Assembly: GCA_964016885.1 (NCBI GenBank)
Contig: CAXHJY010000639.1
Location: 65,660-129,659 of the forward strand
Direction of reading: 5' to 3'
Source of the DNA: Eledone cirrhosa
Lineage: Eukaryota
Length of the DNA stretch: 64,000 nt
Every line of letters starts with the position of its first letter. Position 1 is the first letter of the stretch. The notes beneath the pieces were generated by a model. That model searched no databases and had not been told where the DNA came from. It saw only the letters and a program-made list of their open reading frames with translations. Made by a program: the position numbers and the translations under genes. Positions 13,833 to 54,243 of this stretch are shown one piece after another.

Positions 13833-15156
13833 GTGAGTACAAATGAATTTATCATAAGTTATTATTTCATATTTATATATATGTTATAGCAACTGAAATT
13901 ATCATGTTTTAGCAATTGAAATTATAAAAAACACCAAAAGAATTTTGGACAATTATACTTTATTCTTTTTAACTTAGTGCAAACTTGATAGAAATTTTGG
14001 TTATCAAAATTTAAGCAAGTATTGCACCAAGAAAAATATAGACTTCGGCAATAAAGGAGAGTAAGAATTTATTGGCTTTAACATATGTTTCTGTGTCTAT
14101 TATAATAGTCTACATATGCTGATTACAATATATATTGTTCAATCATATGCAAAACTTAATTTTCACATGTCTTCAGAAAGCTTAAAATTGTTTGTGGTAG
14201 TTATCAAGATTATACTTATTAATCTTTGTTACATTTTTGTATCAATATCAATTCTCAACTTACTATCATTTCTACATATATCACAGTGAACAAAACTATA
14301 TATTACTATCATCTCTATCAGTGTCTACATGGTCACTCAACCTGCTAGTAATAGCAAACAATTTCACCTCAAACAGCACCCTACCATCTTAAAAAAAAAA
14401 AGAACACATTGGAAAGAGTAATGAAGTCTTGGATATATTATCTGAAAATAAGATGGGATGGTCATGACTGGAACACTTTGATCATAATTCAATTTGGTCA
14501 GCGCTGACCTGAGGATAAGCAACACCAACTATACTGTATATACATGTCCCTGCCAATATAGCTGTATGCTATATCATCTGTACACATGTTATCCCATCTA
14601 ATGCACATTGGATTTTACAATTACACATATTCATTCATATTTTTTTTTTCTGCAAAATTAACTGCTTTATATTTCCTGTTCATTAAGCAGTGTAGTTTTG
14701 CTTACTTATGTTTGTTGTTAACTAATTTAGTGGTGAAACTAAAACAAAAACTAATGTTCTATTTTTGTTTTTAAATTTTTTCTGATTTGGTTTTCAGTTT
14801 ATTGTAACAATTGGGATAACATTTGGATAATATTCACTGTTTTCTTTCATCAGAAGAGGCAGTAGCATTTTTAGTCACTTCCTAAACAAGTAGTTGGTAT
14901 AATTAACTAGGCGGGATTTTGTGCAGTTTAACCCTTTTAATACCAAACTGCCTGAAACTACCCCGGATTTATGATACAAAACTGCTCATTCTAAAATGTT
15001 TATCCATATATTAAAACCTTTGATCCAAAATTTTATTATATAAATTATAATCAATTATATAAATTTTAATCAATTTAAGCGTCTGTATAGAACTAGAAAG
15101 CTGTTATGTAAAACATTACTTAACAGTACATCAGTACAATGGGAAATAATATATAT

Positions 15157-15683
15157 GGATCTTATTTAAACCTTAACCTTCTCGCTAACTACCTTAACCT
15201 TAATTCTGTCGTATTTTTCAAAACAAATCTTCTTCTTATATATTTTATATATATTTTGTTATGCTGGCTAAATTATATGCCCCAAATACGAGGACTTTAT
15301 TTAAACTCTTAACCTCTGCTCCCTTCTATCTTCACCCCCCCCCCCTCTATATCATACTGGTTCGCCACCAATCCCTTCCTCTCTCTCCAAATATAAAATA
15401 AATCCTGCAAGTACGAAACCTCAAAAATCGCCAACCCTATTCAGGATAGGCTGCTATCATGGTGTAATGTAACGTACAAATATTTCTTCACTCTTCTCAC
15501 CATTTTAATTCCCTAGTCCATTCATCAATCTGTATCATTTCTCCCCGAATCCAATCTTTGCTTTTCTATTCGATAATTCTAGCGTATTTTTCAAAAAAAA
15601 TCTTGTATTATTGTTTTATGCTTGTTAAATTATGCCCAAAATACGGGGATCTTATTTAAACCTTAACCTTCTCGCTAACTACC
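15157..15683. repeat. Local direct duplications (ggatcttatttaaaccttaaccttctcgctaactacc; gtatttttcaaaa...cccaaatacg)
   Basis: 15157-15195 recurs at 15647-15683, and ~15211-15315 resembles ~15583-15670. Confidence 0.6.
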
Positions 15684-15719
15684 CAATATCCCTCCCACCC
15701 GCCCCCACGCACCACCATT

Positions 15720-18700
15720 ATTACGTGGGCCAATCATAAGTCAGCGGCCTATGCTATCGCCTACCTGGTTGCCTTTCGATATGATGGATGGACTACGGAA
15801 TTTTGGAGAGTTTGAATAGAAAAAATCTGGACACTCAGTGACAATGCCAAAGATAAAGACAAATTCACCTCATGGACGAGAATGCAAGGACTCCTCCTCT
15901 TTGTTTCGGCCGCGGATGGCTAACATACCCCCGCGCCCCACCGCTCCCACCCTCCAAACGCAATCCAAAACTTCAGAGTTGGTACCAACAAGGTTGTAGA
16001 AATGCTTGAACGTAAGGAGGTCGATGTTTGTTGTATTCAAGAGACCAGGTGGAGGGGTGGGTCTGCTAGATTCATCGTGGGTAAAGAACGATGCTATAAG
16101 CTTTTCTGGGTGGGAAATGACAATGGGTTGGGTGGAGTAGGAATCATGGTAGCAGAAAAGTGGGCAGATAAGATAATAGACGTGAATAGAGTGAACGACA
16201 GAATAATTAAAATAAGACTTGTCCTCAATAGAACTACTGTGACAGTAATATCTGCGTACGCACCCCAATCCGGACTGCCCGGCACTATAAAAGACAGATT
16301 CTATGAGACACTGATGCTCACTACCTCCCAAATAACCGACAGTGACTATATAATTATTGCTGGCGACCTAAATGGTCACGTTGGACAACGTTGTGACGGC
16401 TATGACGGAATCCATGGAGGCTATGGGTTTGGTACTAGAAATGAGGAAGGCTCCAGAATCCTGGAATTCTGTGACGCAAATAACCTAACTATCTGTAACA
16501 CTAACTTCAAAAAACGAGACAATCACCTGATCACCTATAGATCGAGGGAACACACAAGCCAGGTAGATTATATCCTTACCAGGAGACGTGACAGAGTGTC
16601 TGTTGTAAACACTAAATCCCTCCACCATGAAGAATGCACCTCTCAACATAGACTCATAATTAGCAACCTCATAGTCAGGACGAGACGTATTCGACAACAG
16701 AAGAGGACTATCCTCAGGAGAAAAATATGGAAGCTAAAGGACCCCACAGCCAGTAATAATAAATTTAAAAGCATATTACTTGATGCTTTTGATAGTAAGG
16801 AAGAGCAATTAGTCGTACAATATAGAGGAACAGTGGGAATTCCTGAAAGCTAACCTGCTGAAGGCGACAGATGAAACCTGTGGCTGGAGCAGGCCTATAG
16901 GCATGAGGAGAGTAACTTGGTGGTGGAACAGTAAGGTGGAGAGGTCAATCAAGGCCAAAAAGCAGGCTTGGAAAGCATGGCGGGATGGGGGAAGTAGAGA
17001 AGACTATCAAGTGGCCAGGAGGGAAGCTAGGAGACAAGTGTACTTCGCAAGAAGGGAAGCAGAGGAAAGAAAGTTCAAGCATGTTCTACAACGCGAGGAC
17101 CAAAAACGTGAGGTGTTCAGGATTGCTCGGCAATGTGTCAAGGAAAACAGTGATATTGTCTGGGAGAAGTGTGTCCTTAATGATGATGGTGTACTTGCCA
17201 TCACTGACGCTGATAAGAAGGTAGCTTGGAAGTGTCACTACGAAAGGCTACTAAATGAGGAGAATAATTGGGAGAAAGACAGTCTCCCCCACATCGACCC
17301 AATAGAGGGACCAGCAGTGCAAGTTGAAGGTAGTATAATAAGTAAGACGATCAAAGACATGAAGACGGGCAAGGCGGCCGGGCCTTCGGAAATAGTTGCC
17401 GAAATGCTGGAAGCATCTGGAACGGTGGGACACACTATGGTCACCCGGATAGTAAACCAAGTCATACAGAATGGGGTCGTTCCGAAGGACTGGCGCAGCA
17501 GCATCATCATTAACTGCTACAAGGGTAAAGGTGATGCCCTAGATAGGGGAAACTATAGAGGCTTTAAATTAATTGACCAGGTCATGAAGGTCACAGAAAA
17601 AGTAATAGCGCAACTAATCAGAGAGCGATTCGATGTAGACGAAATGCAGTTCGGGTTTGTGTCAGGTAAAAGTACAACAGACGCTTTTTTCATTGTACGA
17701 CAACTACAGGAGAAGTACCTAGCTAAAAGTAAACCCCTATACTTAGCTTTTGTTGACTTGGAGAAAGCCTTTGACAGAGTACTCCACTCAATTATCTGGT
17801 GGGCCCTTAGAAAACTAGGTGTTGATGAATGGCTTGTGAGAGCTATACAAGCCATGTATAAAGAAACAGTCAGCAAGGTTAGAATTAACAACGAATATAG
17901 TGAAAAGTTTAGCGTAAAAGTTGGTGTTCATCAGGGCTCCGTCCTTAGCCCCCTACTATTTATTATTGCCCTTCAGGCTATAACAGAAGAGTTCAAGACC
18001 GGCTGCTCATGGGAACTCCTATATGCAGATGATCTAATGCTCATAGCTGAATCAATGGCTGAACTAGAGAAGAAATTCCAAACATGGAAGCATGGCCTGG
18101 AATCAAAAGGCCTTAAAGTTAACTTGTCTAAGACTAAAGTTCTAGTTTGTAGGAAGGAAAATAGGGCACCGGTCCCATCTGGGAAATGGCCATGCTCAGT
18201 GTGTAGGAAAGGAGTAGGTAGAAACTCCATTTTTATGTCCCAAATGCAAAGTATGGGTACATGAAAGATGTAGTGGGATCACAGGTAAGCTAACTAAGAA
18301 TATAGATTTTATATGTGGCCGGTGCTCTGGTGCAATAAGTAGCAGCAAGTGCCCACAGAATACTAACTCATTCCATTGCACAGATGGTTCTATAGAAATA
18401 GTGGACAGCTTCCGTTACCTGGGTGACAAAATCAGCAGTGGGGGAGGGTGCTCTGAAAGTACAGTAGCTAGAGTCAGAACGGGATGGAAAAAGTTCAGAG
18501 AGCTTATACCACTATTGGCCGCTAAAGGGTTCTCTCTAAAAATGAAAGGCAGGCTGTATGATGCCTGCATACGAACAGCAATGTTACATGGCAGTGAGAC
18601 CTGGGCATTGTGTGCAGAGGATACGCAGACTGGAGAGAAACGAAGCTTGCATGCTCCGCCGGATGTGTAATAGAAATATACGTGAACGGCAAAGCATAAA

Positions 18701-18937
18701 CGAACTAAGGGAGAAATTAGGAATAAGAGGGATCAGATGTTGTTTACTCGAGAGAAGACTACGTTGGTATGGTCACGTGATGCGCATGAAAGACGACAGC
18801 ATCCAGCCGTAGAAAACCCGCCAGACAGTCCTATGCGAGCAAGACGACCACTCTTGCCTCAAGTGGGAAAACTCCCGTCCAAACCCATGCAAGCGTGGAA
18901 TATGGACGTTAAACGATGATGATGATGATGATGATGA
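15720..18937 (+). mobile_element. Near full-length but defective RTE-clade LINE (APE endonuclease + reverse transcriptase + Cys-rich insert)
   Basis: ORF 16002-16853 has APE motifs (CIQETRW, SAYAPQ, GDLNGHVG, DYIL, SQH). ORF 16903-18264 has RT motifs (QFGF, FVDLEKAFD, GVHQGSVLSP, LYADD). Several frameshifts; (GAT)n tail ends ~18937. 5' boundary approximate. Confidence 0.93.
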
Positions 18938-19238
18938 TACATCCCCAATCTATTGCAAGTGAAATCATTTCATAAAAATATAATTAGTCAAGGGTAAGAA
19001 AAATTTGAGGAAGAATCTTGAGATATCATCAGATAAGCTCTCAAATTTCAATCCTCTACTTTCTTAACCAGATCTGACAACATGTCAAACACTGAGCAAT
19101 GTTACAAAAAGAAGACTATGCTAACTTCGAACTGGAGATATACCATTGAATTACATTTTATCACAAACTGGTGGTAGAAAATCACCTCTGTGTTCTTTGG
19201 CACTATTTGTTCCAATGTAAAAACTATTGGTCTGATAT

Positions 19239-19616
19239 CATCATCATTTTACGTCCGCTTTTCCCTGCTTGCAAGGGTAGGACGGGAACTGGCTTGATTT
19301 CTACAGCTGGATGCCCTTCCTAACACCAACCTCATTTACAGTGAGTGCTGGGTGCTTTTTTTTTCCGTGGCGCCTACACGTTCACTTTACAGTATGGGCT
19401 GGGTGCTTTTTTGCCGTGGCACCTCCACGACCACTTTACAGTGGAATGATAGGGACTCCAGTTCCTATCATCTCATTTCTACAGCTGAGTAAACTGGAGC
19501 AATGTGAAATAAAGTGTCTTGCTCAAGGAAACAACACATCACCTGGTCTGAGAATTGAACTTACAACCTTTCGATCGCAAGGCCAATGCTCTAACCACTC
19601 AGCCATGTGCTTCAAC
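19239..19616 (-). mobile_element. tRNA-derived SINE, family 2 (CORE-like centre, RTE-derived tail) with 11 bp target-site duplication
   Basis: On minus strand: A-box tggctgagtgg, B-box gttcaattc, ccttgagcaagacact core, RTE-like 3' end and (GAT)n. TSD TGGTCTGATAT at 19228-19238 and 19617-19627. Confidence 0.9.
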
Positions 19617-19630
19617 TGGTCTGATATATA

Positions 19631-19965
19631 TGGAGGCACATGGCTTAGTGGTTAGAGCATTGGCCTTGCAATCGAAAGGTTGTGAGTTCAATTCTCAGAC
19701 CGGGTGATGTGTTGTTTCCTTGAGCAAGACACTTTATTTCACATTGCTCCAGTTTACTCAACTGTAGAAATGAGATGATAGGACTGGGGTCCCTATCATT
19801 CCACTATAACGCGGTCGTGGAGGTGTCACGGAAAAAAAGCACCCAGCACTCACTGTAAATGAGGTTGGTGTTAGTAAGGGCATCCAGCTATAGAAATCAA
19901 GCCAGAATAAGTTCCCGTCCCACCCATGCAAGCAGGGAAAAGCGGACGTAAAATGAAATGATGAT
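19631..19965 (+). mobile_element. SINE family 2 copy, head-to-head with the previous one
   Basis: tggcttagtggttagagc...gagttcaattctc head, same core and tail as 19239-19616. Confidence 0.9.
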
Positions 19966-19974
19966 ATATATATA

Positions 19975-20769
19975 GTAATATACGTGAACAGCAAAGCATA
20001 AACTAGTAATATACGTGAACGGCAAAGCATAAACGAACTAAGGAAAAAATTAGAAATAAGAGGGATCAGATGTTGTTTACTCGAGAGAAGGCTACGTTGG
20101 TATGGTCAGTGATGCGCATGAAAGACGACAGCTGTATAACAAAGTGCAGACCCAGAAAAACCTGGGACGAGCTGATAAATTCCGACCTCACACACTTACA
20201 CCTCTCCAAGACAATGTCACTGGACCGAGACCTTTGGCGGTACTCAGTAATAGAGAAGACCCGCCTTACCTAAATACAAAGTAAAACCTACTACAGTCAG
20301 TAGGCATCTCTAACAAAATACACCCCCATCCCACCACCCCCACCCCATCCACACCGCCCTTTCAATGTAAAGTTATGTTGGTGCCACAACATCCAGGCCG
20401 AAACAAATGAGATCGTGTAGGTGTCACGACAAAAAAACACACAGTCCACGCTGTAATGTGGCCGTGTAGGCAACACGGTAAACACTTCCCAGTCCCACAC
20501 TGTAAATGTGGTTGGTGTTAGGAAGGGCATCCAGCTGTAGAAAACCCGCCAGACAGTCCACGCTGTAATGTGGCCGTGTAGGCAACACGGTAAAAACCTC
20601 CCAGCCCCACACTGTAAATGTGGTTGGTGTTAGGAAGGGCATCCAGCTGTAGAAAACCCGCCAGACAATCCTATGCGAGCAAGACAACCACTCTTGCCTC
20701 AAGAGGGAAAACTCCCGTCCAAACCCATGCAAGCGTGGAACATGGACGTTAAACGATGATGATGATGAT
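19975..20769 (+). mobile_element. 5'-truncated RTE LINE (RT end + 3'UTR with internal tandem duplication)
   Basis: Matches 18670-18800 and 63405-64000. ~110 bp duplication (20442-20552 vs 20553-20665); (GAT)n tail. Confidence 0.88.
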
Positions 20770-21885: not shown

Positions 21886-22002
21886 GGAATAAAAAGGCTT
21901 CACCATCCTCAAAATACAATACAATAGGTGTACATACACACCGACAACATCAACAGCAACAAGTAAAGGATACTGCATTATGGAGAAGAGGAAGCCAAGA
22001 TG
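21886..22002 (+). CDS. Candidate cassette exon A of the WIP-like gene (117 nt, phase 1-1), not in ORF track
   Basis: Acceptor (t)n-ccatag. Open in phase 1: (G)NKKASPSSKYNTIGVHTHRQHQQQQVKDTALWRRGSQD(G). Donor GATG|GTAGTT. Length divisible by 3. Confidence 0.62.
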
Positions 22003-23616
22003 GTAGTTGACAAGTACATTAGTCCCATGTAGTGCTTCTATGTTTCCAGTTTTTGCCATATTTTTCATCATGTGATATTGACTGCCTGCTTTCACTCTTC
22101 TAATATTTGTTGCTGACTTATGCTTTTGTCTATTTAGTGTTGTCTACATTAATACTCTTAATCAAGATGATGTTGCACGAATAATGACATTAATAATATT
22201 AATTTCAATGGTGTTATGATAATAAACTAATAACATATATATATATATTTTTTTTTATGTTAAGCATAACTTCAAATATTCCAAAAGTGAAAAGAAGTTG
22301 GTATCTTTGAATATTCCATTGGAATTTTTAGCAGAGTTATTTGAATTCAGTCTAGTTTCAACAGTCATGCTATATTTGTAATAGGGAGAGCAACATGGTA
22401 AAATCTGGGGGAATTGCCTTTTCAGATAACTAATAGATTCTGAAGGAGGATGAAAAAAATATTTGGTTGATGTATTTGGGTGATTTTGGTGATGGTGTGA
22501 AACAAAGAAATATACATTAAAGCTGGAGATTCACAAAAATTTAGAGATAGAACTAAATGGAAGAGACACAATTAATTGAATCAACACATATGGGAGAGTG
22601 TAGTCAATTTAATTGTTCCAGTACTAATTATTTTATTAAGATCAGATCTTCAGCAATTTAGAGAGATAGTTACCTTTATCTCTATCAGTTCTGTTATCCC
22701 TGATAATGATGATAATAATGATAATTTTTTTTCACAAAACATTAATCCCAAGATTTGATGAGGAAGGAAACAAGTGAGATGTGATATTTATAACTTTCCC
22801 AGGGGCATTAGTAATGTAAGTGAAATTAAATGATGCCAACTTAAAGTTGAAACTAGGTCATAGACTCAGTTTGTTGAGGACCTAGCATATAGCGCAACAC
22901 CTAATAATTATAAACAGCTATCAATATCATAGGAAAATATTTATTGCTTAGAACTAAATAAATATACTGGGAAAAATACTTTATGAACACTTTAGTCAGA
23001 TATTTTGGAATGTCATAGAAAAGTATATTGTTACTATATTTTTTATTGAGTAATCTAAATATAAGAATCATTATGACAGTTGTTTTTATTTTTTTTATTT
23101 TGCTGTTGGAAAAGATCAAAATAATTTTTTTTTGCATTTTTAGTCTAATTTAGTATATTGTATAACTTAATGCATTTTAATGCTAAATATCAACATGGTT
23201 ATAATTTTCAAATGAAAACTTCCTCAATATTAACTTACTAACAAGTCCACCACCAGGTTTGCTAATGGTGTTTATTTAATAAACAGTTAGTTTCTAAAGC
23301 ATAGTAGACACCTGATTGGATTGAACAAAAATCAAGCAAACTTATCTGAAATGACTGGTTGTCTTTTGTTTTCTTTAAGTCTTTTGGCTTCTATGTATTA
23401 ATTTTAATTTAGAATAAGTGCGGCTTTTTTTTTTTTTTTTAAATTGATAGTTTTCTCCAAAATTACTGTATATACTTGAATATAAGCTACCCCCCCCTCT
23501 ATTTTATGTCTGAAAAGTGAATAAAAATCCAAACACCGTTTATAAGCAGAAGAGTCTAATCAATACATGTTTAGATGGTGTACTTTTGAAATTATTTATG
23601 AAATTTTAATAGTTTG

Positions 23617-24965
23617 ATGTTCTTAGCCCTCTCATGTTCATCATAGTCCTGCAGGCAATAACGGAGGAGTTTAAGACCGGATGCCCATGGGAACTCCTGT
23701 ATGCTGATGACCTCACACTTATAGCTGAATCTATGGTAGAACTAGAGAAGAAATTCCAAACTTGGAAGCAGGGACTAGAAAGAAAGGGTCTCAAAGTCAA
23801 CATGACAAAGACTAAGGTCCTTGTAAGTAGACGAGAAAACAGAACCCAGATCCCCTCAGGGAAATGGCCTTGTTCAGTATGTATGAAAGGTGTAGGTAGG
23901 AACTCCATTCTCTGCCCCAAATGCAAACAATGGGTACACAAGAGATGTAGCGGGATCTCAGGAAGCTTAATTAAGAATGTAGGCTTCACATGCAGCAGCT
24001 GTACTGGGACAGCAAGCAGCAAACAGCCACAGGAAACAAGTACCACCAATCTCTGGGAGGGCTCTGTAGAGACAGTAGACAGCTTCTGCTACCTAGGTGA
24101 CCGAATTAGCAGCGGAGGTGGGTGTTCAGAAAGTACAATAACAAGGGTAAGAACGGGATGGAAGAAGTTCAGGGAACTACTACGACTGCTAGCTGCAAAA
24201 GGCTTCTCCCTCAAAATGAAAGGCAGACTGTATGATGCGTGTATCCGAACAGCAATGTTACATGGTAGTGAGATCTGGGCGCTGAAGGTGGAAGACTTAC
24301 GTAGATTAGAGAGAAACGAAGCCTGCATGCTCCGATGGATGTGTAATAGTAATATACGCGAACGACAAAGCATAAATGAATTGAGAGAGAGACTGAGCAT
24401 AAGAGGAATCAAATGCTGTGTGCAGGAGAGGCGGTTGCGTTGGTATGGACATGTGATGCGTATGAAGGATGACAGCTGCATAAAAAGGTGCAGAGCACTA
24501 GAAGTTGATGGAAACCGCGGAGTGGGGAGACCCAAGATGACCTGGGATGAAGTGATAAAAGGCGACCTTACCCAATTACACCCCTCAAAGGCGATGACAC
24601 ACGACCGTGACCTCTAGCGTCACGCAGTAATACAGAGTACCCGACCTCCCATGGGTACAAGCTGAAGCATATAGACAATATGCCCCCACACCATCCCACT
24701 GCAAGGTGGTCGTGGAGATGCCACGGCAAAAAAGCACCAAGCCCACACTGTAAAGTGGATGTGTAGGCGCCACGAAAAAGCACCCAGCACTCACTGTAAA
24801 TGAGGTTGGTGTTAGGAAGGGCATCCAGCTGTAGAAATCAAGCCAAATCAGTTCCTGTATGAGCAAGGCATGGTCAGCCGATCAGACACTGCTCACAACA
24901 GGACAACCCGTCTAACCCATGCTAGCGTGGAAGAACGGACGTAAAACGGTGATGATGATGATGAT
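23617..24965 (+). mobile_element. 5'-truncated RTE LINE, second subfamily
   Basis: ORF 23634-24617 continuous (LYADD, WPCSVC...CPKCKQWVHKRC, RLRWYGHV). 3'UTR differs from the 15720 copy and ends in (GAT)n. Confidence 0.92.
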
Positions 24966-27015: not shown

Positions 27016-27360
27016 ACTGCTCAGCTATATTAATTCAAAGAAAGAAAATCCTTGAGAAAAAACAAAAAAAAATGATTACAAATCATAAAGTAAACTCATT
27101 CAATAATAATGCTAAGACAAGTTATTCAATTACAGCTGCTACCAAGAACACTAGTGTCCAAAATAATTTGCCTGTTTTTTCAAAAATCCTTCCAGCTACT
27201 ATTTCTGAGAACAATGATATTAGTCAAGGACTTAGCCCCAATAGCCTAACTAACATTGATTCTGTAAACAATAATGAATTTAACAAACCAATAGATTGGC
27301 ACATAAAACGAGGCCTTAATGAAGCTAACATACGGTGGATTTCAAATCTGAAAAAAAAGG
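27016..27360 (+). CDS. Candidate cassette exon B (345 nt, phase 1-1), Asn/Ser/Lys-rich
   Basis: Acceptor tttttcactttgcag. Open phase-1 frame DCSAILIQRKK...NIRWISNLKKK(G) within ORF 26970-27416. Donor AAGG|GTATAT. Confidence 0.7.
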
Positions 27361-29742: not shown

Positions 29743-29788
<46 letters not shown>

Positions 29789-29881
29789 TGTGCGTTAATA
29801 TAAGTATATGTATTTATGTATGTATACGTGTGTGTCTGTGTATATATATATGTATGTGTGTGTATGAAGGTAGATAAGGTT

Positions 29882-31472: not shown

Positions 31473-31831
31473 ATATGTATATATGTGGTATAATATAAAT
31501 TGTCTTATTTTCTGTGTGTGTCAGGTAAATGAAGTCTGATTGAGATAATTATGTGATTGGTTTCATTATAAACTAGTACTATTTACTCATTTTAATGTCA
31601 AATCTCAACATATTCCTTTTAAATAGAATTTTCTGGAGGGAAATTTAATTTTTTAGAGAAATCATGAGTTTTTTTATTTTATTTTACTCATTTACTTTAC
31701 TATATTCATTTTCTTTTAAAATCCATTAGTTTTAAATTTTTAAATATTTCATGTAATTAACATCCATTTAATTAACATCAACACCAGATTAGCTTAATTT
31801 CATAATGAATTTTATAATTTACCAATTTCAG

Positions 31832-32509
31832 TTCGTCGGCTATCGACGCTTTCCTTCCCCGTGATGACATCTTCCAAGTCCAGCTTTGAAATATCACCAA
31901 CTATGCAGTATTCTTCTCACACATCTTCTGTGCCTCAACATTCTCCTAACCAATATGTAGCCCACTTAAAAACAACAAAGGCAGAAACATCACCATCTTG
32001 TTATACTTCAGCAGTGTCTCATCAACATAAGAGTTCTGTTAATGAAGCTGAGGAGCCTCATCAAATGAAATCTGAAATGATCTCTACTCCATCTTACAGA
32101 ATTATTCAAGAGTCCTCCTCAAATGATATAAATACTACTAGCTTTAGTTACTCTGATAACTATCTATCTCCCAACCAATATTCTAACCCATATACTTCTC
32201 AGAACATTGAGAATAATGTCAGTGTTACTTCAACATTGCCAGCACCACCATTGATTGAGCAGATCCAATCTAATTTGAAAAAGTTAAAAAAACACAGTTC
32301 CCCTAAAATGGCTAATACTAGGACTAGCTGTGGAAATTCATCCAACCTGAAAATAATTCAAGGTTCTCCTTGCCATACATCATCAAAAGCTGCTAAAACA
32401 CTTGAACAGCAGCTTCATTCTCTGCGCAAGATCTCAGTCAACCATAAGACTACATCTTTTGAACCTTCAGCACCAGTCTCAGAATGGAAGCAGAAATTTA
32501 AAATAGATG
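31832..32509 (+). CDS. Candidate cassette exon C (678 nt, phase 1-1), Ser/Thr/Pro-rich with WH2-like motifs
   Basis: Acceptor tttaccaatttcag. 226 open codons in very AT-rich DNA (VRRLSTLSFPVMTSS...PPLIEQIQSNLKKLKK...EWKQKFKID). Donor GATG|GTATAC. Confidence 0.8.
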
Positions 32510-33143
32510 GTATACAATGCACGGTTATTAGTTTAGAAATTTGTCATTGGCACTTTGCATAACATTAGCTCTTTACATAACATTTAATTATAGAATTACT
32601 TATTTCCTTAAATGTAAACCTACAGTACTACCTTACAGAAAATTATATTCAATAAGAACTGGTTACCTTTTCATAATTGTGTATGTGTGTGCATGTCACA
32701 GATAGCATTTCACCAGTCACCATTCTATTATTTTAAAAACTGACTGGGAGAAATACCCAGGGTTGCTGGCTGCATGAAAAATTCATGCAGTTAAGCCTAG
32801 AACTTTTAATAAATAGAATTACTCCTGTAGTATGGAGTGAAAATGATTAGCTAAATAATTAATTCTGGCCAAGAAATGCAGGAGAGATAACTCCTGGATT
32901 TGAATTAATTAAAATCAATTAAAAACAGAACGTAGAGGGAGTGAGTCAAATCCTTGTCAGTATCATGACCACTCTGCATGTTTTTATCTTGCTTGAAAGC
33001 ATTGTCTTTTCTAATGTAACAAACCCATGATGACATAGACATATAGCAGTTTAGTGGATGACAACTGAAGAGAATGACTTGTGGGTGGGTACCTGGGATA
33101 ATTGTTGCATGAAAAACAAATAGTTAAGTGGGTAGTAAATTAA

Positions 33144-33959: not shown

Positions 33960-34748
33960 CTCCCAATTTCAATAGATTTTCTGCTTTTCGGTTGAATATT
34001 CGCCAGCCTGGAACTCCTCGGCATAGATCTGCAGCTATGTCTCATTTTAGACCAGTCGCCTCAACAAATACTCAAATGAGTTCTTATAATGTTACTAAAT
34101 CTTCAAATATCATTGCAACTAATTCTAATAATGTTTTAACTATTGGTGCTAAATTTAACAACTTCAACCAACAAACATATCCAAAAAAGACTGAAAAAGA
34201 ATGTGTTATCGTTGAAAAGCCTCAACAGCCCTACCAGAAATATAAAAGTTCAGTAACTGGAACTTATGAAACTGCATCAGTTATAGAACAACCCAAGAAT
34301 ATAGCATACAAAGTATCTAACCAGCCTTCACCAAAATCAACTATGTCGCAATCAGTGTCTGAGAAAAAACCTGCAGAATTTCTAGAAATTACTCTTAAAT
34401 CAACAAAATTTTCATCATTATTTTATGGTGCTAAGAAAGATCCCAAAAAGGATTACTCACCATATGGAAATTACAAACGATCACCTTATGGAAATCCGTC
34501 TTCTTTACTTAAGACTAATAATAATTTAAACCCTTATGTAAGATCTGTTTCCTACCATGGGCCAATTTCTGATGCTTCCTACACATCTCCACAAAATTCA
34601 GGCAGCTATTTCCAACCATTCTTCCGGCCTTCGTTTATGTCCAATTCTGAGAAAGTATACTTTGAAAATAACTATCAAAAATCAGCTTCAGCGCCATCTC
34701 TAGTACAAAGCCGTATCCAATGGGCATTGAATGTGTCTTCATCTGATG
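33960..34748 (+). CDS. Candidate cassette exon D (789 nt, phase 1-1), Ser/Tyr/Pro/Lys-rich
   Basis: Long T-rich tract then ttttcag acceptor. 263 open codons (APNFNRFSAF...SLVQSRIQWALNVSSSD). Donor GATG|GTATTG. Confidence 0.8.
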
Positions 34749-37700
34749 GTATTGTTGCTGTTGTGTTCCTCTTATGCACATAGTTTCCTTCTGCTATACA
34801 GCCCATTTGTACCCACTGCTTTGTATACCATTCTATGGTTTAGTGACAAAACTTCAAACTGTGACACCAAGAGAGATTTTTTTTTTAATGAACAAAGCTG
34901 ACTTTATATTTTTACTCATAAATTGTAATTTCTGATTAATTACATCTATTATTGATATTAATAAGAGTAATGAAAGGCCAGCATTGATATAATACATGAC
35001 AAAATATTTGTGGTGTTTAGCTAGGTCTTTTTATGGTCTGAGTGCAAGTCAGTCATCTATATTAGTACCCTTATAAATATGTGCCCTTATGATAATATTA
35101 TGAATCATTATTGAAGCTAATAAGCAGTTCATTAAGTCGCAAGAACTTCAGAAAGTTGATATTAGATTTAAAAAGTAGGGAATTAAAAGTTTCAACAAAG
35201 TATCAATTTCTATAATCAATTATAGTGGGGTTAATCAAATACTATTTTTAATGAGCTCATCTATTTTTGATTTGTTAAACCACTTGCCAGTTCCCCTTCT
35301 TCTGTGGTCACAAATTCACAGAGTAAATTAAAAGTTTATTGTGAGACTATAAAAAATCCTGTACTTATTTGAAAGCATAAAGTAATAATGATTTTAATTA
35401 CTTAACATTGCTATAACTTAGTTGTAAACTGTCTATTGTCAGTGGTATAAATATATTGTATATTTATCAATAATTTGTTTTAACATCATTGCCTCTCTCC
35501 TTATGTTCTTTTAGCTGAATTCATTCTGTTGTAAGCATTCAGGTTAGGTCTACAATCCAAGGATAACTTCCTCCTTACTTTCCACCTGTCTTGGAGGCCC
35601 TGACGAAACTATTAAACAAATTTCAAAGTTCAGAAGTTACATCTTATTAGTAGTTGTCATTTAAATCTTTCATTGGGGTTTATAAACATTAACACTACTA
35701 CACTTCATTTCTCTCCGAGTTGTTCATCTGGTCAGCATGTGTGATTGTCACCATTAGTCAATGGATGACTGTTTCACCAAGATTGCACATCCACCATTCT
35801 GCTTCCCATGGTTTCACTTAGTGGCTTCCAATCCTTGGTTGCTAACCTCTTTATCAAGAGGTTGTTTTATTCAGCCATTGGGCAAAACCCTATATGGGAT
35901 ATTGATGGGTGATGTGATCAAATCAGACATGTCCAAGCATGCTTGACTATATAGTGAATAATTGCAGCAAAAGGTTTGTTTTCAATTCCCTTAAGTGTAG
36001 ATAGTTAATGAAATAGAGATCACTTGACATTTTATTTGCTAACAAATAGACTCATAATAAGTGTATTTGTATATGAAAGTAAAATGTGACTGATGTAATT
36101 TCAATAGATATGTTAGGAATTGCATGTTAAATAGATGATTTTGTGTATTAAACCAAAATATGTATAATTAGAATGACTTTCATATTGTATATTATTTGAA
36201 GCACAACATATGACACTTAGTTTATATGAGCATTGTTAACTTTATGGAAGAACTAAAGAGGATTTAAAAAAGAATTATGAAATCTAATTTCAATCATAAA
36301 GCTAAACTATTCATCTGGAGTATATTGGTACTGCACACATCAAAATATTGCTACTCTCTTTCAATAATATATTTTATCCCTGGAGATATTTTAACTGTGA
36401 TGTTAATACTTTCTCATCCAGATTCCATAGTTCCATAGCATATTTAAAATGGCTAAGATTGTGAATCATAAGCAAGTTTGGTGTTTGTTTAAATATTATT
36501 TCTAACTAAGACACTATCAGTTGTGCAGGAGTGATTCTGTATAACTGACAAACGTACAGTAGTAGACTTGAACCTATCTGTGTTGCCTGTTTACATATAG
36601 GTAAAATGAACTAAGAAGGGTTAAGTGTTTTTACAAGAATGTATTTAAATGTCATTGATAGGGTATGAACCATCGATTGCTTGCATCTATATTACTTTCT
36701 TATCTGCAACTCTGACTTCAATCAATTCAATCAATATACAAGAATATCTAGCTGTATTGAATTTGTGATCCAGTACTGATAATTTAACTGGTTAGTTCCA
36801 ATCGACATGTCTAAGAACAAGTTTTCAATTGCTGAATACTTAAAAAAAAAACACAAGTTGAAAATAGTTTGTATTTAGTTACATTTTGGGTTCAAATTCA
36901 ACCAGGGTCAACTTTACTTAACCTTTTAGTATTGATAAAATAATAATAGACTAAATCTCATCTTGAGCCTATGTTGAAAACATATTTTAGGTTTTCTTTG
37001 GTGTGACATACTTATTCTTATTTACTCTTACCTTGGCTCAGTCACAGTTCAAGCTTTTAGTTGTGAAATTCATTGCATCTTTGTATTGTTTAACATGTTC
37101 CCTCTTCACATTAGTTAACAATTAGCACATTGTTTGCTGATAGTTAGTGAGAAATAATTATGTAGAAACATAGCTGCTATAGTACTCAATATCAGAGGGT
37201 TTCAAAACTTTTTCAAGTTTCCTCATAAGAAACCATTCTCAGTCGTAGCACTCATACAGTATTAAAAAGTATCATTGAAAAAAAAAAGCAATACAAAATA
37301 ATATGAATAAATTAAATCCATTGATCAATATGAAAGTTAATATTAATGCAAAGAGTATTAAAAGCTTACTAGAAATAATTGTGCATTGAGGAAAACCTGG
37401 TATTATTATTTCCCTTTTTCCAGCAAGTATGGGAGACAAATCTGGACAATGTTTTGATTTTATTCTGAGCTCCTCGGCAAAGCATTGACTTCACCAGTAC
37501 TTGCTAAGTAAATATTAACTGAAAAATATAGAATTATGTAGAAATTAAATAATTCATAGACATCATCTTCAGGGGAAGCTATTAGGTAAGTTAAATTAGT
37601 GAACAGGGAAATGACATTTACATGCTTTATTTATTTGTAAATGTCAATAAAACTTAGTAGTAATGTGTAATTGAGACAATTTAATTACAGTTTCATCATT

Positions 37701-39343: not shown

Positions 39344-39439
39344 CTAGTCAAATTACGGATAATAAAGAGGATTCAGTTCGATCTTTGGTCAAAGATCGTA
39401 TCCATTCTTGGGGAGGAGGACATTATTATAAAGATGAGG
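39344..39439 (+). CDS. Candidate cassette exon E (96 nt, phase 1-1)
   Basis: Acceptor ttttttttatttcag. Open phase-1 frame ASQITDNKEDSVRSLVKDRIHSWGGGHYYKDE(G). Donor GAGG|GTATAT. TGCATG at 39512. Confidence 0.7.
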
Positions 39440-42302: not shown

Positions 42303-42335
<33 letters not shown>

Positions 42336-45879: not shown

Positions 45880-46575
45880 ATCATGATGTTTACGGCTGCT
45901 TTTTCCTGTTTGCATGGGTTTAACAAGTCCTCTTCAAAACTGTCCTTCTACTTGTGTTGCTTTGTCATCTCATTTGTGAGGTTCAACATCATAAGATCAG
46001 CCTTTATTCCACTTGGAACTCCTAGAGCATTTTTGCCCAACTGTCATCATTCATATACATTACGTTTATACTAGCACAGTCTTCTTTTCTTTGCAAATAA
46101 CACCCGATTCCGCTTTTGCCCAATTTTTCTCTTGACTCATCTGTACTTCGTCATTCATACACACTAATGTTATACAGCCAGTGGAGCATGCTTACTTCAT
46201 TTCTTTCACACATCATCTGCATTCAATGTCCATGTCTTACTACCACACAGCATTGCACTACATACACAGACATCATAGAATCTCCCTTTCATTCAGATAG
46301 AGATTCCCTTTATATCTGCAGAAGTATCAGCTTGCTTTACCTTTTCGACCCTATTCTTATTCTACCTATTATGCTTCCAGTACACCCTCTCCCACTGCTA
46401 ATTAGGTCACTTTGGTAACATAAGCTATCAACTACTTCTATGGTGCCTTCTGAGCATTGGAAATATATTATTTTACTGGTGCTTGTACTCTGACTATCCT
46501 GTGCATCTGCCACATAGAAAATCTACCTTCTCTGTTAGCCTGCCTGCAATTCCACTACATATGTTGTGTACTCAC
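45880..46575 (-). mobile_element. Old decayed RTE LINE 3' fragment, antisense
   Basis: Degenerate reverse complement of the RT C-terminus and Cys-rich region. Confidence 0.65.
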
Positions 46576-47593
46576 TCATATTTATTGATTTATTGAGGAT
46601 GATATGTATATTGTCCAAGCAATGAAAAACAAAAGCACATAAAAATGATGGTGGTAGTAGTGTTGATGATGATAATGTAGTAGTTTCCATAAGCAAACAA
46701 CTCAACAAAGTTGTTAGTTCCTGTTACTGTTGAGTTGTTCTGTTAGTGAAATGTCACTTGTCAACTGCAAACCTCCCTGCCTTATCAACTAACAGCTGGG
46801 TGTTGACAGGTGACAATTGCCAACTATAATTAAAACTGTTATTTCACAGTTATGGTATGTGTGTGTGCATGTATGAGGTATCATCACCATTGTCCGTATC
46901 ATCATCATTTGTCAATATAATCTGTTACATTATGTAGAAGTGTCAACCTTTTTGCAGTGTTAGTCATATACATATATATCCTCATTATCATTGTTTTACA
47001 GCTGTTTTTCCATGCTTGCATGTGTGTAATTATACATACATGTGTCTGTGTGTAAACATACGTATATATTCATTTATCATCATCATTTTACATCCAATTT
47101 TCATATTAGCAATGGGTTTGATGGGTGCCATAAACCAAACCAGTACTTAATTAGCATTACTATCCTCCTAAGTGGGTCAGCGGACCACATTTTGCTCAGA
47201 CACATTCTTTTTTTTACATGGTTTTTACAGCTGGATGCCATAGTGTATCAGGTGTTTTTCATTGTGGCATCATCACTAGGGAGATTATCATGACCATTGT
47301 GTAACTAAAGAATCTTCTCTGTCCCTTTTTTGGGGTGGTAGGCATGGGTGCACTTCGTAACGTCATCTTATTGTTTGAATGTCAACCATTTTATAGAGTG
47401 TATTGAGTACATTTTATAATGACACCAACACCAAGGCAAACAGGATCCAAAGTGAAAACAGAAGGTAGGTTTAAGGGGAACAGAGATGTATGACAAGTGT
47501 GGTGGGGTAAACACTGATGGAATCATGGAAGGGAGTAATGAAGAAAATAAGGAGTGGCTTTATGAGGGATTACTGGTAGGAGGTTGAATAGGC

Positions 47594-47990
47594 ATCATCA
47601 TCACCATTTAACGTCCATTGTTCCACTCTAGCATGAGTTAGATGGGTTGTCCCGTTGTAAATCAAGCCAGAACAGGTGACCATGTATTGCTCATACAGAA
47701 CTATTTCTGACTTGGCTTCTACAACTTGATGCCCTTCCTAATGCCACCCACATTTACAGTGTGGACTGGTTGCTTTTTGTCATGTCACCAACACGACCAC
47801 TTTACAGTGTGGACTGGGTGCTTTTTTCGTGGCACCAAAACAATCATTTTAGTGTGGACTGGGCGCTTTTTGATATGGCACCAAAACGACCACTTTATAA
47901 TGTGAATTCGAACACTTGCACTTTAAAGTGTGAACTGGATGCTTTTTGTCATGCTACAGAGTGGACTGGGCGCTTTTATCTCATCATTGT
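47594..47990 (-). mobile_element. RTE 3'UTR fragment with expanded ~45 bp subrepeats, antisense
   Basis: (CAT)n start, repeated acagtgtggactggg...cttttt...cacca units. Confidence 0.75.
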
Positions 47991-49400
47991 TTAATGTCTG
48001 TTTTGATGATGATGATGATGATTTATGGTGCAAAGGGATAATTTTAGATACAATTTACTTAGTGTTGGCAGTGTGGAGTTGAAAGTAAATGTGAAAACAT
48101 TCTCCACATCAGTACAACATGCAGAACTATCATCCTTGAAAAGTGGAGGAAAGAGGTTTTCCACAAAGGTAGAGAGCATTGACAAAAGATAAAAAATATC
48201 AACCGTAGTATGAGAGAGCTTGCAGAATGTGCACAGTATAGAGGCAGCCGTCATGATTCAGATGATGGCCTTAAAGGATTATTATTATTATTATGAAAGG
48301 TCTTGTAGATTGTCCGTATTGGTAAAGTACCGGACAAAATGGTTTGTGGTATTTAGTCACGACTTACTACATTCTGAGTTCAAATCCCACAAGGTCAACT
48401 TTACCTTTTATTCTTCCAGAGTTGATAAAATATAGTAGCAGTTAAGTACTAAGGTCAATATAATCGATTTCTACTGTATCAAATTGCTGGCCCTGTGTTA
48501 GTGTTTGAAAGAATTATTATGAAAGGTCTGGATCTTGAGGTAAGGACATTCTTCCTAGAACTGGATGGTAGATCAGTGGTCTTGGAAGTGAAGGTACTAC
48601 TTAAGTGTTTAAGACTGAAGCCAGGCAACCAGACTTGTTCAAGTGTCTGGAAACACCCTCCTGCTCATTAGTATAAGTGAGCAATAGGAATGGCATCTTA
48701 AATGTGGAATTAGCTGGCAGGCTTGATTTTGATTTTCCAAATATGTGCTTGGACTAATTGCATTGGGTGGTCCAGGAGGTATCTAAATCTGTTGGGCTAC
48801 AATATAGAAACTGTCAAGTAGTTGGCTTCAGATCACAAGTTTGTGATCTTCCCGGTTAACAGACAAGGTCCCAGTTACTGGCTGCTGAACATCTCGTTCC
48901 TAATCAAACCTTACAGGGCCTGGTTATTACTGTTGTTTTTGTGTAACTGGTGTGGTAAGATTTGCTTTGAAAAAAATTTGGTTACTATTTCTAGTCAACC
49001 CTCCTTTGTTGGTTTGTACCATTAAACATATCTTTTCTTTGGTGTCATCTCTGCTTTATATCTGTTAGAAAAGGAGATTCTAGAATTTCTGTTCTTCTGT
49101 TTGAACTATAGTTTAATGTGACAATGTAAAAAATGAGAAAGTTAAATTAAAATAAAGAAAAATCCATTATATCTTCGTTTCACCTTAAATTGTGCTTCGA
49201 GTTCCCAGAGATTCTTGTGACAAAACACAACCATAATATATTCTAATATTAAACTTCTCTCCCGCTCGCTCACCTCCACCAGCTTCTGTTAATATAACTA
49301 TCCAACTTCTACCTGGCTGTCTAATCTATTTATCTATCTACCTGGTGTGTGATGTTATTTCAAGTAGTTACGTTTCACGTCCACGCACATGCAATACCGT

Positions 49401-49592
49401 AACCGTGTTTTCATCCACTTCTTAACTTCGCAAACTATTGCTATAGTTTGGTATTTTGTTTAATAAAAAAAATACCTCGTGTACAGAGTCAGTAATAGCG
49501 GAACTGTGTTTTCATCCTCTTCTTAACTTCACAAACTAATGCCATAGTTTGGTATTACATTTTATGAAAATACTTCGTGTACAGAGTCAGTC
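49401..49592. repeat. Direct tandem duplication of ~100 bp
   Basis: aaccgtgttttcatcc...cgtgtacagagtcagt present twice with few differences. Confidence 0.85.
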
Positions 49593-51348
49593 AGTTAGAA
49601 TCAGAAGCTAAGTAATTCAAATTGTAGAAGCAGTAATGTTATTTGTAAAGTCTTTATTCTTTCATTTTGCTTTCGTTTTCGTTACTGAAAGGAAAATCAC
49701 TAAGTTAATCAAACAATAAAGGTGCTCATACAATTTTTTCTCTTTATGATCTTATTTATTTGTTTTTCTTTCTCTGTCTCTCTCTCTTACAATCGTTGTA
49801 CCTATTTTCTTTCATAGTCTGTATTGCAAAGCATCTTTTCATTGTGATGTGAATGTACATATATCAGTCTCTTTCATTTTTTGTACCCCTCTTTGCCATT
49901 GTATTCTCTCTCTCTCTCTCGTTCACACTAATTTACTCTGAAGAGGGAGATGCACTTACTATTTTAAATAAATACAAAAAATAACTACAGAAATTTGGCT
50001 TCTTATCACCAACTACCACTGATCGATACTTGCACCTACCCTCCTCTCCCCTCTCACTCTTTTCATACAGTAGTATTCGTAGTAGTTTCTTTATGTCGGT
50101 GTTACATACATGCTGCTGCTGCATAAACGTACTGGACACATGAGCACAGCTGAGTTATCACCATCATTACCACCAACTACTAGCACCATTGACACCGTCT
50201 AATACTGCTGTCTCTACCGTCCGTCTTTTACCCGAACACTTCAAACACTCTACACGGAAAAACTGCTGAATGAGTGAGTGATATATTACTTCTATTCCAT
50301 TCATGGTTGTTGTTTTTTAACCCCAGGTCAGTCGTGACCATCATGTCATATTTTTATTCAGACATACCACATCTGGGACTACCACTAACCAATATGTCCT
50401 TTTTTATTTATTTGAGATATATTAGTTGTCATTTCTAGCAGGTCAAATGATCAAGTAAAGACCCGTTGGGTGTTTATTTTCAGTTCATATTGATTTCATT
50501 CTTATCGTCTGTCTAATCCTCCAGCTTCTCTCGTCTTAATAGTTCATGTTCCCACTCTATATCATTGAAACTCAATTTGTTCCTCTATGCATATATGTAA
50601 AATATAGGTATGCATACATGTATGTTGCATGAATGCATGTTTGATACTTACTACATATACATATATGTATGTTTACATACGCGCACACACACATGTTTAT
50701 ATATATATATATAATCATTGTCTCTGACCAAGCAGCAAGGTACACCATGCTTGACCTTCCTGTCTTGTTTCAGCCAAAGTGCATAATCGTCTGTTCTTAA
50801 AAAAAAAAGACTAGGGTGTAATTTGAGAAAGTTTTGGCTGCCATTTCTAACAGGTCATGATTTGATGCATGTTGTATATGTTTGTGATGTTGCTCTTGTG
50901 TATCTATGTATCTGGGGATAACCCTGTGTCGATTGTGTGTCATGAGCTGTGCTGCTATTAAATATACTAAATGTATCCATAGTTATGTGTGCGTGCGTGT
51001 TATGTCATGTATGTCTACCGGTTTCAATTTAGGTGTGCGTGTTTATGTGTTCTTTTCAAATAGTGTATTCTTTTAAATCTAAACTATTTCATTTCTTTAC
51101 ATTTTTAATATTATTGTTAGTCATATTTAATTTTCTTTTTGTCAGAATAGTCCATATATAATATAGGTGCGAGTGAGCTAAACTCTTGGATTTGTCATAC
51201 GTGTTAGTCTGTGCCCTAAATGTGGTGGCGGTGGTGCTGACTACATTCCAGTAGTCGCAGCACAATTCCTTAACTCAACCCTAACAATCCTCCATATCTA
51301 AGTAATCATATAGTGTGGTTCATATTCCTTTCCTACTTACTGTTGCTG

Positions 51349-51394
<46 letters not shown>

Positions 51395-52432
51395 AATGAA
51401 AGTATATAAATTATTGTGAGCGTGAAGCCAACAGTGACTATAACGTCAAAATGGAAAAATAGTTATATATAGAGAGAGAGAGACGACACACATACATATA
51501 TACACACTTACATATATACACATACACACATTATATATATATATATATATACACACGCATAATACACACACACAGACAGAGACAATTATGAGATAAAAAT
51601 TCAGTCAAACTAAAGCACATAACCTGCCGACAAGTCTATCTTGTATTAAGAAGTAGGAAAAATATGTTACTATATATATATGACAGTAATGTTTAAGGGT
51701 TGCTATATACATATCTAGATTACTATCCTTACAGATTACTATCTATAACTGACAGCCAAAAGTTAATATAGTAGTTGAAGGATTTCTTGTCTAGTGATCC
51801 TATGAGTACACAGTTGAAACTCCTCAGTAACAAGACTCATCATTTAGTCATATTAAAGAATATTAAAACCCTATTTCGGTTTGAGTACCCATTCTCCCGT
51901 TCATGGAGATATTATCTAGCATCTGAAAACTCCGAGTGCCTAGGAAGATGTAATCCAATTTACCGTGTGTTTTACATAATATGATATATAAACTTTCAAC
52001 TTTATTCGTTTGAAGGAAAATAATGAATTCCCGAGAGTTCTTCAATAAGAACTAAGTGCTAGTGTTTGAAATTTCTTTACTGGGTTTTGAAGTCTAAAGG
52101 CACACTGGGAAGACCTTTGTTACGGCTTGTTCAAGATTGCAACTGAATATCCCTTATCATTTCTTCTGTCACTCTGTGTTGGGTGGGACGTGTAATCATG
52201 TTTTAAGACTATTACCACTATGCGAGCTGTGTCAGTCAAGCGTTTTGTTTACTTTTTAATAAGTAGCCAGATTGTGCTACTTTTCAGAACTTTTTATTTA
52301 ACTTAGGCTACTTGCTATAAAATTTTTTTTTTTAAAGTAACAATCGTATGGAATACCATACTGTATTATCAGCTAAATAAATTTGACGAGCAGCAAGCAA
52401 TAAATTGGTAACCTAGTGTTACACAATAGAAA

Positions 52433-52597
52433 AATAATTGTTTATACTTTTGGCACAAGGCCAGCAATTATCCCAGTGCATTACGGGTACTTTATTTTAT
52501 CGACCCCGTAAGCATGAAAAGCAAAGTTAACCTCGGCGGGATTTGAACTCAGATCGTAAAGGGACGTAACTCAATGCTGCAAAGCTTCCGACCCTCT
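52433..52597 (-). mobile_element. SINE family 1 copy, head truncated
   Basis: Match to 2561-2730. Confidence 0.8.
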
Positions 52598-54243
52598 AAA
52601 AAATAACATAAATTGTTTTGTGTATTTAAAAAAAATGACCAATTAGTGGGGAAAAACCCCACTTGTGTATCTTCCAAACCTTAAACTTTATTTCAAAATC
52701 CCCAACCAATCCCATCAAGAGCTTTGGTTGGAGAGAGAATTTATTAGTGTAAGGGCATATTGACTGAATTCATAAAAACAATACTTCAATAAATATGAAA
52801 CTTGTGTCTAAATTATTTTAGTAATCAAACTGCCCACCATCTCTCATACACAGTCAAATTAAATGTTCTAATTTTATCAGACTATTATGCTTACACTCAC
52901 ACAGCCATATTCTACATATGTCTGTAGTATTGTTGTCTTTGTTTAGCCCCTGATCAGCTCTGATCTTGCAAGCCTATGGTCAAAGGCATTCCAGCAATGA
53001 CAGTCCCATATATTTCCAGACATAGTGTGTGTGTATATATATATATATATAGGACTGCGATATTTAATGTCCTTCTAATCAAATGACTAGGGTGTGATCT
53101 GGCTTCTATTTTTAGTATGTTTAGTGACTATATAGAGTCTTATTAAAAACCACATGTTTCTGTTTACTGATACACTGTCTAATAGATCTATTATAGTATT
53201 TGGTCCTATTTCAAGTGATGTGGATAGAAAAAGAAACTAACAAGCCTATAATGATGCAGACAAAAAAGAAAGAAAATGCATCCTCTTAATTCTTCACTCT
53301 TACTCCTCTATTTTATACACAAAAGGGTTAAAAAGCTGGTGGGCCATCACACTTTTAGTGTCTTGTTCAGTGCTGACCTACAGATATTTCATTATCTCCC
53401 TTTACGTTCTCAGTTCAAATCTTGCAGGTGTTCATCTTAATTTTCATTTTTCTTTACCAGTAATATTCTCAACATGATTTCAATCATGTTAATTCAAGTA
53501 GCTACATCTCTCCCCCTTATGACCTAAACATATGTAACCCTGTGTTAATTAATCAGTAACTTGAAAATATACCAATACATTTCAAATGTGCTTTTATCTC
53601 ATTGAAGTCTAAGTTAAGCAATTTTACCTTTTGATAAGTCATCATTAAATGATAACTTTATATCGTTATCATTAATGGTTTATCATTAACGATAAATTAG
53701 AAACACTATTCTTTAATTTTTCTTCTCTCTCTCATTTGTTTTGAAACCTTGAAATTCCTCAGCATTTTCTACATTCCTCTCTGTGTATAATCTGTATTTG
53801 TATTTTTTATATTTTTATGTTTCTCACTCTCTTTTATTCCCCCTACCCAACTTTTTCTTTCTCTCAAAAATGTTTGAATTTTTCCACGTATAAAAAAAGG
53901 AAAGCAGAAATGTGATGTTTTATTTGATGTACAAACATTTTAAATGTTTTTTTTTTTTTTTTAGAGCAACATACTTCCACTTTCTAAATTATTGTCAATT
54001 ATAAAATTTTAAATCACTAGAGGATTGCAGGAGTAAAACTTAATTTATGATAATTTCTTTTCAATTTTCTTTAATTTATCTTCAATTTTATTTTCTTGCT
54101 TATTATTTTCAATTTTATTTTCTTGCTTATTATTTTCAATTTTTTTCTTGCTTCTTGAGTAGTATATTAGTATATTTGGAAGATAGTTGAACTGTAATGA
54201 TTTCCATTATAAGTATTGACAATTTCTTGTTTGTTATTCTCAG

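What the first reader, a model, noticed from the sequence alone, without database searches (positions are those of the whole stretch)
13833..54243. Modular WIP/verprolin: five frame-preserving cassette exons (up to 675 aa) between the two conserved N-terminal motifs
Seen: exon 1 ends in phase 1 and joins in frame to 54244, giving a canonical WIP. Five open segments in between (21886-22002, 27016-27360, 31832-32509, 33960-34748, 39344-39439) each have a pyrimidine tract + AG, begin and end in phase 1, and are multiples of 3, so any of 32 combinations keeps frame. Known: in vertebrate WIP the WH2-1 and GGLF.GMPKL motifs are separated by a short Gly-rich linker. Inference: a lineage-specific combinatorial or mutually exclusive splicing module that greatly lengthens an actin regulator, possibly in muscle or neurons.
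Basis: partly seen in the sequence, partly recalled or inferred. Interest (0 to 1): 0.85.

Follow-up and report, generated by a model that had tools for sequence, protein, structure and literature searches.

The report
Conserved optional exons in actin regulator
Five open, frame-keeping segments lie inside the first coding intron of a WIP-like actin-regulator gene, and the two longest are kept as open frames in related animals, so they are likely optional exons that would add extra docking motifs to the protein, although no RNA was seen joining them.

Summary
Observation confirmed: all five segments have AG/GT ends, lengths divisible by 3 and an open phase-1 frame. Segments c3 (31832-32509) and c4 (33960-34748) are coding. 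Stop-free frames this long arose in 0 of 200 simulations. Relatives keep them open at 74% (c3) and 71/39/40% (c4) identity, with 4-15 in-frame indels, and lose the frame just past the donor. c1, c2 and c5 have no homolog data and rest on splice sites.

c3 has a conserved WH2-like motif; c4's most conserved block holds an RVxF-type RI[QK]W. The cassettes are not homologous to each other.

Not shown: any splice junction, the tissue, use of '32 combinations', or the WIP C-terminus (contig ends).

Verdict: likely regulated cassette exons adding disordered, motif-bearing modules to a WIP-like protein; a new variant of a known kind.

The parts
13626..13832 (+). First coding exon: acceptor at 13626, ATG 13643, poly-Pro, WH2 (13742-13819), phase-1 donor
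   Evidence: PF02205 E 2.9e-8; human WIP peptide 2a41_C, E 1.9e-5
21886..22002 (+). c1, 39-codon candidate cassette; Trp codon 21981-21983; weakest class of support
   Evidence: no homolog search run
27016..27360 (+). c2, 115-codon candidate cassette; second-strongest acceptor of 50 in the intron; Trp codon 27336-27338; single copy
   Evidence: no homolog search run
31832..32509 (+). c3, 226-codon coding segment, Ser-rich, likely disordered; single copy; Trp codon 32485-32487
   Evidence: (74% to P0001/P0004)
32251..32289 (+). WH2-like helix + LKK motif inside c3, kept in the relative; below Pfam detection
   Evidence: Pfam no hit in 12, 80
32510..32570 (+). Intron flank after the c3 donor: still recognisable in the relative but in a shifted frame after 7 codons
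33960..34748 (+). c4, 263-codon coding segment, Ser/Asn/Lys-rich; single copy
   Evidence: 71%, 39%, 40% to P0014, P0015, P0016
34679..34732 (+). Most conserved block of c4 (13 of 15 columns invariant in 4 sequences), with an RVxF-type RI[QK]W at 34712-34723
34749..34830 (+). Intron flank after the c4 donor: recognisable in a relative in a shifted frame; read-through tails vary among relatives
39344..39439 (+). c5, 32-codon candidate cassette; open in phase 0 as well; Trp codon 39409-39411; weakest class of support
   Evidence: no homolog search run
54244..54381 (+). Next exon, Gly-rich linker + GELFPGGIPKL, phase 1-1, strong splice sites; single copy
   Evidence: no Pfam or PDB match

Best explanation
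The five segments are likely alternatively included cassette exons of this WIP-like gene that would insert disordered, motif-bearing modules between the WH2 exon and the exon at 54244. Shown: the anatomy, and that c3 and c4 keep an open frame in relatives and lose it just past the donor. Inferred: the strong 13832 donor and 54244 acceptor give the short default form; the weak G|GTAT/GTAG donors with conserved intron flanks are used when tissue-specific splicing factors are present; since every join is phase 1 and makes no stop, one cassette or a small subset can be added. Predicted function: c3 would add a second actin-binding WH2-like site, c4 a PP1-type docking site, and each cassette ends in a Trp-anchored short motif placed just before exon 54244. 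I expect a few tissue-biased isoforms, not all 32.
For: Anatomy. Frames of 220 or more codons in 0 of 200 simulations. c3: 147 of 199 aligned residues identical to P0001, 4 in-frame gaps. c4: 211/296, 86/223, 89/225 identical with 7, 14, 15 gap events and islands of invariance. Read-through tails of P0001 and P0014 match the window's intron in another frame a few codons after the donor; within one cluster the tail is a stop in 4 members and a read-through in 2. All 36 donor-acceptor junction codons are sense. Both listed single-base differences inside c3 are synonymous, and none of the 12 listed indels falls in a segment (40 of 155 substitution rows were shown; one sample). Trp within 10 residues of the end in 5 of 5 cassettes, with only 6 Trp in 670 residues; 1 of 20,000 family-wise shuffles. 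c2, c3, c4 are single-copy, so not transposon frames.
Against: No spliced product seen: none of the 11 c3/c4 homolog proteins continues into an exon-54244-like sequence; 10 read through the donor like genomic DNA and one is cut earlier by a frame break. Protein searches can only return open frames, which biases towards conservation. Two of 7 members of the P0015 cluster (P0018, P0020; 3 and 2 contigs) are halves of a c4 homolog broken at an A-run, either an error or a real null allele. The homologs carry no context, so their place in a WIP gene is unknown. c3 and c4 acceptors are weak. c1, c2, c5 have no conservation data. The motifs are regex-level: RVxF occurs in 25% of shuffled c4 and fails the stricter extended consensus; the c3 motif gets no Pfam WH2 hit and its regex was fitted after seeing it; the 10-residue Trp window was chosen after seeing it.
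Confidence: 0.66

Rival explanations
1. c2, c3 and c4 are alternative first coding exons. An upstream non-coding exon or internal promoter would skip the WH2 exon, translation would start at a Met inside the cassette, and the cassette would splice to 54244, giving WIP forms with a swapped N-terminus.
For: Exon 1 has its own acceptor, so it can be skipped. The Met at c4 residue 26 opens a block kept in all 4 aligned sequences, and the Met at c3 residue 24 opens 17 identical residues. The shared terminal Trp fits 'one at a time'.
Against: c1 and c5 have no Met. This model does not need the acceptors to be in phase, yet c2, c3, c4 all are and are stop-free before the Met (about 1 in 27 by phase alone). 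Homolog starts at Met may only reflect the gene caller.
Confidence: 0.13
2. The five form a strictly mutually exclusive cluster: each transcript takes at most one.
For: Same phase, similar weak donors, and a Trp at a similar distance from each end.
Against: No pairwise homology (all 10 cassette pairs p > 0.1); no steric block; 0 of 40 docking-flank pairings below p 0.05; frame cannot enforce exclusion.
Confidence: 0.09
3. Only c3 and c4 (perhaps c2) are exons, of a separate nested same-strand gene or as terminal exons with intronic polyadenylation, giving a truncated mini-WIP-like form; c1 and c5 are chance.
For: Homologs read through the donor; short 1-1 candidates occur by chance; a truncated mini-WIP exists in mammals (PMC3397550, passages).
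Against: Post-donor tails shift frame between relatives; no AATAAA within 1.5 kb after c4 and no excess after the others; no start or stop exon of a nested gene was evident in my scans; c1 and c5 share the Trp pattern.
Confidence: 0.1
4. All five are chance open frames in AT-rich intron.
For: No spliced product was seen.
Against: Simulation and frame conservation down to 39% identity with about 15 in-frame gaps.
Confidence: 0.02

Closest known systems
WIP/verprolin family (human WIP, WIRE, CR16; Drosophila Vrp1)
   Same: N-terminal poly-Pro and WH2 like human WIP's, then a Gly-rich linker and a second conserved motif. The V-domain with two WH2 stretches in residues 1-112 is described in PMC3397550 (passages); Vrp1 has two N-terminal WH2s and several splice variants (PMC2931478, passages).
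   Different: Up to 675 extra residues could sit between the two N-terminal motifs. The passages read describe only a C-terminally truncated mini-WIP. The C-terminal WASP-binding domain could not be found here.
Tissue-regulated cassette exons encoding disordered, short-motif-bearing segments (general class; recalled, no call)
   Same: Symmetric phase, weak donors, conserved intron flanks, low-order composition (16-28% order-promoting residues), conserved islands.
   Different: Five in one intron, two over 670 nt, unrelated in sequence yet each ending near a Trp.
Mutually exclusive tandem exon clusters (Dscam type; recalled, no call)
   Same: Several same-phase exons in one intron.
   Different: No homology among exons, very unequal lengths, no docking pairing found.
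SFM actin-filament-binding motif VxxLxxxFE (PMC13364712; abstract, sections 6, 7, 11 and passages read)
   Same: c3 and c5 end in loose V-x-x-[W/R]-x-x-x-[F/W] patterns.
   Different: No strict match in any cassette; the c3 P8 Phe is Ser in the relative.

Membership tests
WIP/verprolin | N-terminal poly-Pro followed by WH2 | tested here: met
   PF02205 33.5 bits over cut-off 23.1 (12); PDB WIP peptide E 1.9e-5 (39). Two other loci in this genome have similar WH2 tails, so this alone is not diagnostic.
WIP/verprolin | Second WH2-like motif after a Gly-rich linker | tested here: inconclusive
   GELFPGGIPKL resembles the recalled motif; no Pfam or PDB match.
WIP/verprolin | Central Pro-rich region and C-terminal WASP-binding domain | tested here: inconclusive
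   Contig ends at the window end; no convincing next exon in 54382-58500; a recalled motif pattern gave 5 hits against 58 for its control, none plausible.
Alternative cassette exon | AG/GT ends, symmetric phase, open frame | tested here: met
   5 of 5.
Alternative cassette exon | Frame conserved in relatives, ending at the donor | tested here: met
   Met for c3 and c4 only; one broken c4 variant; c1, c2, c5 not searched.
Alternative cassette exon | Inclusion and skipping junctions in RNA | not testable with these tools
   Needs RNA reads; see Tried and rejected.
Tandem mutually exclusive cluster | Homologous exons; steric or RNA-pairing exclusion | tested here: not met
WH2 domain (c3 motif) | Amphipathic helix + LKKT-like tail scoring as PF02205 | tested here: inconclusive
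   Pattern present and conserved with a shorter linker than exon 1's; no Pfam hit.
RVxF PP1-docking motif (c4) | [RK]x0-1[VI]{P}[FW] in a conserved disordered stretch | tested here: inconclusive
   Short consensus met in c4 and in 5 of 5 c4 homologs scanned; it occurs at random in about 25% of proteins and the extended consensus is not met (PMC4794898 passages).
SFM | VxxLxxxFE | tested here: not met
   0 strict matches.

The most novel reading that the evidence does not exclude
This lineage turned the short linker between WIP's two N-terminal motifs into a splice-controlled toolbox: five unrelated exons that each converge on a Trp-anchored docking motif beside the second motif, with c3 adding an extra WH2 (a tandem-WH2, possibly nucleating form) and c4 recruiting PP1, so that splicing switches WIP between a plain WASP chaperone and tissue-specific actin/phosphatase scaffolds.
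Probability: 0.22. Interest if true: 0.78.

Novelty: new variant of a known kind. Interest (0 to 1): 0.52.

Why it matters
WIP's N-terminal V-domain is described as compact (112 residues in human). A set of large optional exons inside it, one conserved to 39% identity, would give a single-gene route to several actin regulators. It yields precise tests: named junctions and three named motifs. The shared terminal Trp in unrelated exons hints at a common partner. As it stands it is one gene's exon anatomy without RNA or function.

Tried and rejected
RNA: no RNA holder listed; the 3 runs laid cover introns evenly and behave as DNA of one sample. An octopus long-read annotation in the supplement of PMC9699675 could not be opened (218 MB file) and may bear directly on the junctions. 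Complex prediction of c3 residues 130-225 with an intronless actin-like protein of this genome: no answer, score 0.01, alignments not used, no evidence either way. Homolog searches: c4 among 460-2000-residue proteins, 0 of 1272 candidates; exon 1 among longer proteins, 0 of 1 candidate, so the collection did not even return the ordinary form and these blanks are weak. c3 profile-free search gave 3 hits, 2 of them unrelated repeat proteins that I dropped. ESM Atlas: no usable hit twice. Metagenome scans: 0 of 47 and 0 of 73 stretches confirmed. Exact look-up of 5 window frames: 0 found. Rest of the gene: not reached. Docking-site pairing and shared flank words: nothing beyond T-rich words. Splicing-factor motif counts near background; TGCATG lies within 250 nt of 3 of 5 cassettes, not tested further. 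SFM and tandem-duplicate models rejected. Earlier findings: 5 look-ups empty; the sixth gave 3 archaeal notes that do not bear. Literature: searches (listings only, except papers cited) showed no report of these exons; the library lacks most subscription papers.

Full report
Observation. The coordinates are right. Exon 1 starts its frame at ATG 13643, encodes poly-Pro and a WH2 motif (PF02205, E 2.9e-8; human WIP peptide, E 1.9e-5) and ends in phase 1 at 13832. The exon at 54244-54381 is phase 1-1 and reads a Gly-rich linker and GELFPGGIPKL. The five segments between them (c1-c5) are 117, 345, 678, 789 and 96 nt, each between AG and GT and stop-free in the phase-1 frame; together 675 codons, and all 36 possible junction codons are sense. 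Acceptors are strong for c1, c2, c5 and weak for c3, c4; all five donors are weak next to those of the flanking exons (hand-set weights).

Chance. In 25001-54243 there are 2 stop-free frames of 220 or more codons on + and 0 on -; 0 of 200 Markov simulations gave one. Short symmetric candidates are common at loose thresholds (29 on +, 12 on -). Among strong acceptors 3 of 50 on + and 0 of 38 on - open a 1-1 exon, and these are c1, c2 and c5. So c3 and c4 exceed chance; c1 and c5 alone do not clearly.

Relatives. c3 has a homolog cluster of 2 proteins (P0001, P0004) at 74% identity with 4 in-frame gaps. c4 has three clusters, at 71%, 39% and 40%, with 7, 14 and 15 gap events and islands of invariance. 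All are unnamed and look genomic: they read through the donor. That read-through is informative. The tails of P0001 and P0014 match the window's intron in a shifted frame a few codons past the donor, and within the P0015 cluster the tail is a stop in 4 members and longer in 2. Coding constraint therefore ends at the proposed donors while the flank stays recognisable as DNA, which is what regulated exons usually show (recalled). Against: P0018 and P0020 are halves of a c4 homolog broken at an A-run (3 and 2 contigs); protein searches only return open frames; and no context ties the homologs to a WIP gene. c2, c3 and c4 are single-copy in the genome.

Same-species reads. Contigs of three runs of one sample cover all five segments unchanged. 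A second form differs at two listed sites in c3, both synonymous, and none of the 12 listed indels lies in a segment (40 of 155 substitution rows were shown). This is weak and possibly not independent of the assembly.

The cassettes share no sequence homology (all 10 pairs p > 0.1), yet each has a Trp 7-10 residues from its 3' end, with only 6 Trp in 670 residues; 1 of 20,000 shuffles matched this over all residues and both ends (window chosen afterwards). The Trp of c3 and c4 is kept in relatives. c4's most conserved 15 residues (13 invariant in 4 sequences) contain RI[QK]W, which fits the short RVxF PP1-docking consensus but not the extended one, and the short one appears in 25% of shuffles (PMC4794898 passages). 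c3 holds a conserved helix + LKK pattern like exon 1's WH2, below Pfam detection. No strict SFM is present (PMC13364712 sections 6, 7, 11).

Mechanism. Most likely these are optional exons of the WIP-like gene. Strong outer sites give the short form; weak cassette donors are switched on by tissue factors; each inclusion inserts a likely disordered, mostly basic module with a short docking motif. Splicing, tissue and binding are all inferred. I find no support for a classical mutually exclusive cluster: no homology, introns of 1450-5013 nt between cassettes, 0 of 40 docking pairings below p 0.05. The 32 combinations are possible by frame and nothing more. The main rival is translation starting at Mets inside c2-c4 with the WH2 exon skipped; it does not explain the in-phase acceptors or the Met-less c1 and c5.

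Known context. WIP's two WH2 stretches lie within residues 1-112 and the isoform described is a C-terminal truncation (PMC3397550, passages). Drosophila Vrp1 has several splice variants (PMC2931478, passages). [quoted passage not shown] Searches showed no report of these exons. Family membership is met for the N-terminal WH2 only; the contig ends at the window end and the WASP-binding domain was not found.

Verdict. Real feature; c3 and c4 coding about 0.93, c2 about 0.8, c1 and c5 about 0.65; splicing into this gene as internal cassettes about 0.75 including the strictly exclusive case. These odds are my judgement.

Noticed in passing
window 15924-18670 (+): Near-complete LINE in the intron: endonuclease and reverse-transcriptase frames in three overlapping pieces.
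   Followed up: partly
window 23613-24617 (+) and 62309-63402 (+): Further 3' fragments of the same LINE family; the first has RT and PHD-like matches and very high read depth.
   Followed up: partly
window 58523-62307: 3.8 kb TA microsatellite near the contig end, which may explain why the gene is broken in the assembly.
   Followed up: no
L006 1495-2625 (-): Intronless, divergent actin-like gene, 76-79% identical to four conventional actin exons of the same genome.
   Followed up: no
L018 and L020: Two other poly-Pro + WH2 exons with WIP-like tails, possible paralogs or other verprolin-like genes; L019 looks like a tandem-WH2 WASP-type exon.
   Followed up: partly
window 41269 and 46322 (+): Two more strong acceptors that open symmetric frames (phase 0-0, 129 nt; phase 2-2, 93 nt); not compatible with phase 1, likely chance.
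   Followed up: no
window 53965: The highest-scoring acceptor-like site of the intron lies 279 nt before 54244 but opens no usable frame.
   Followed up: no
window 31764-31777: Cluster of small indels between two forms of the same sample, just upstream of the c3 acceptor region.
   Followed up: no
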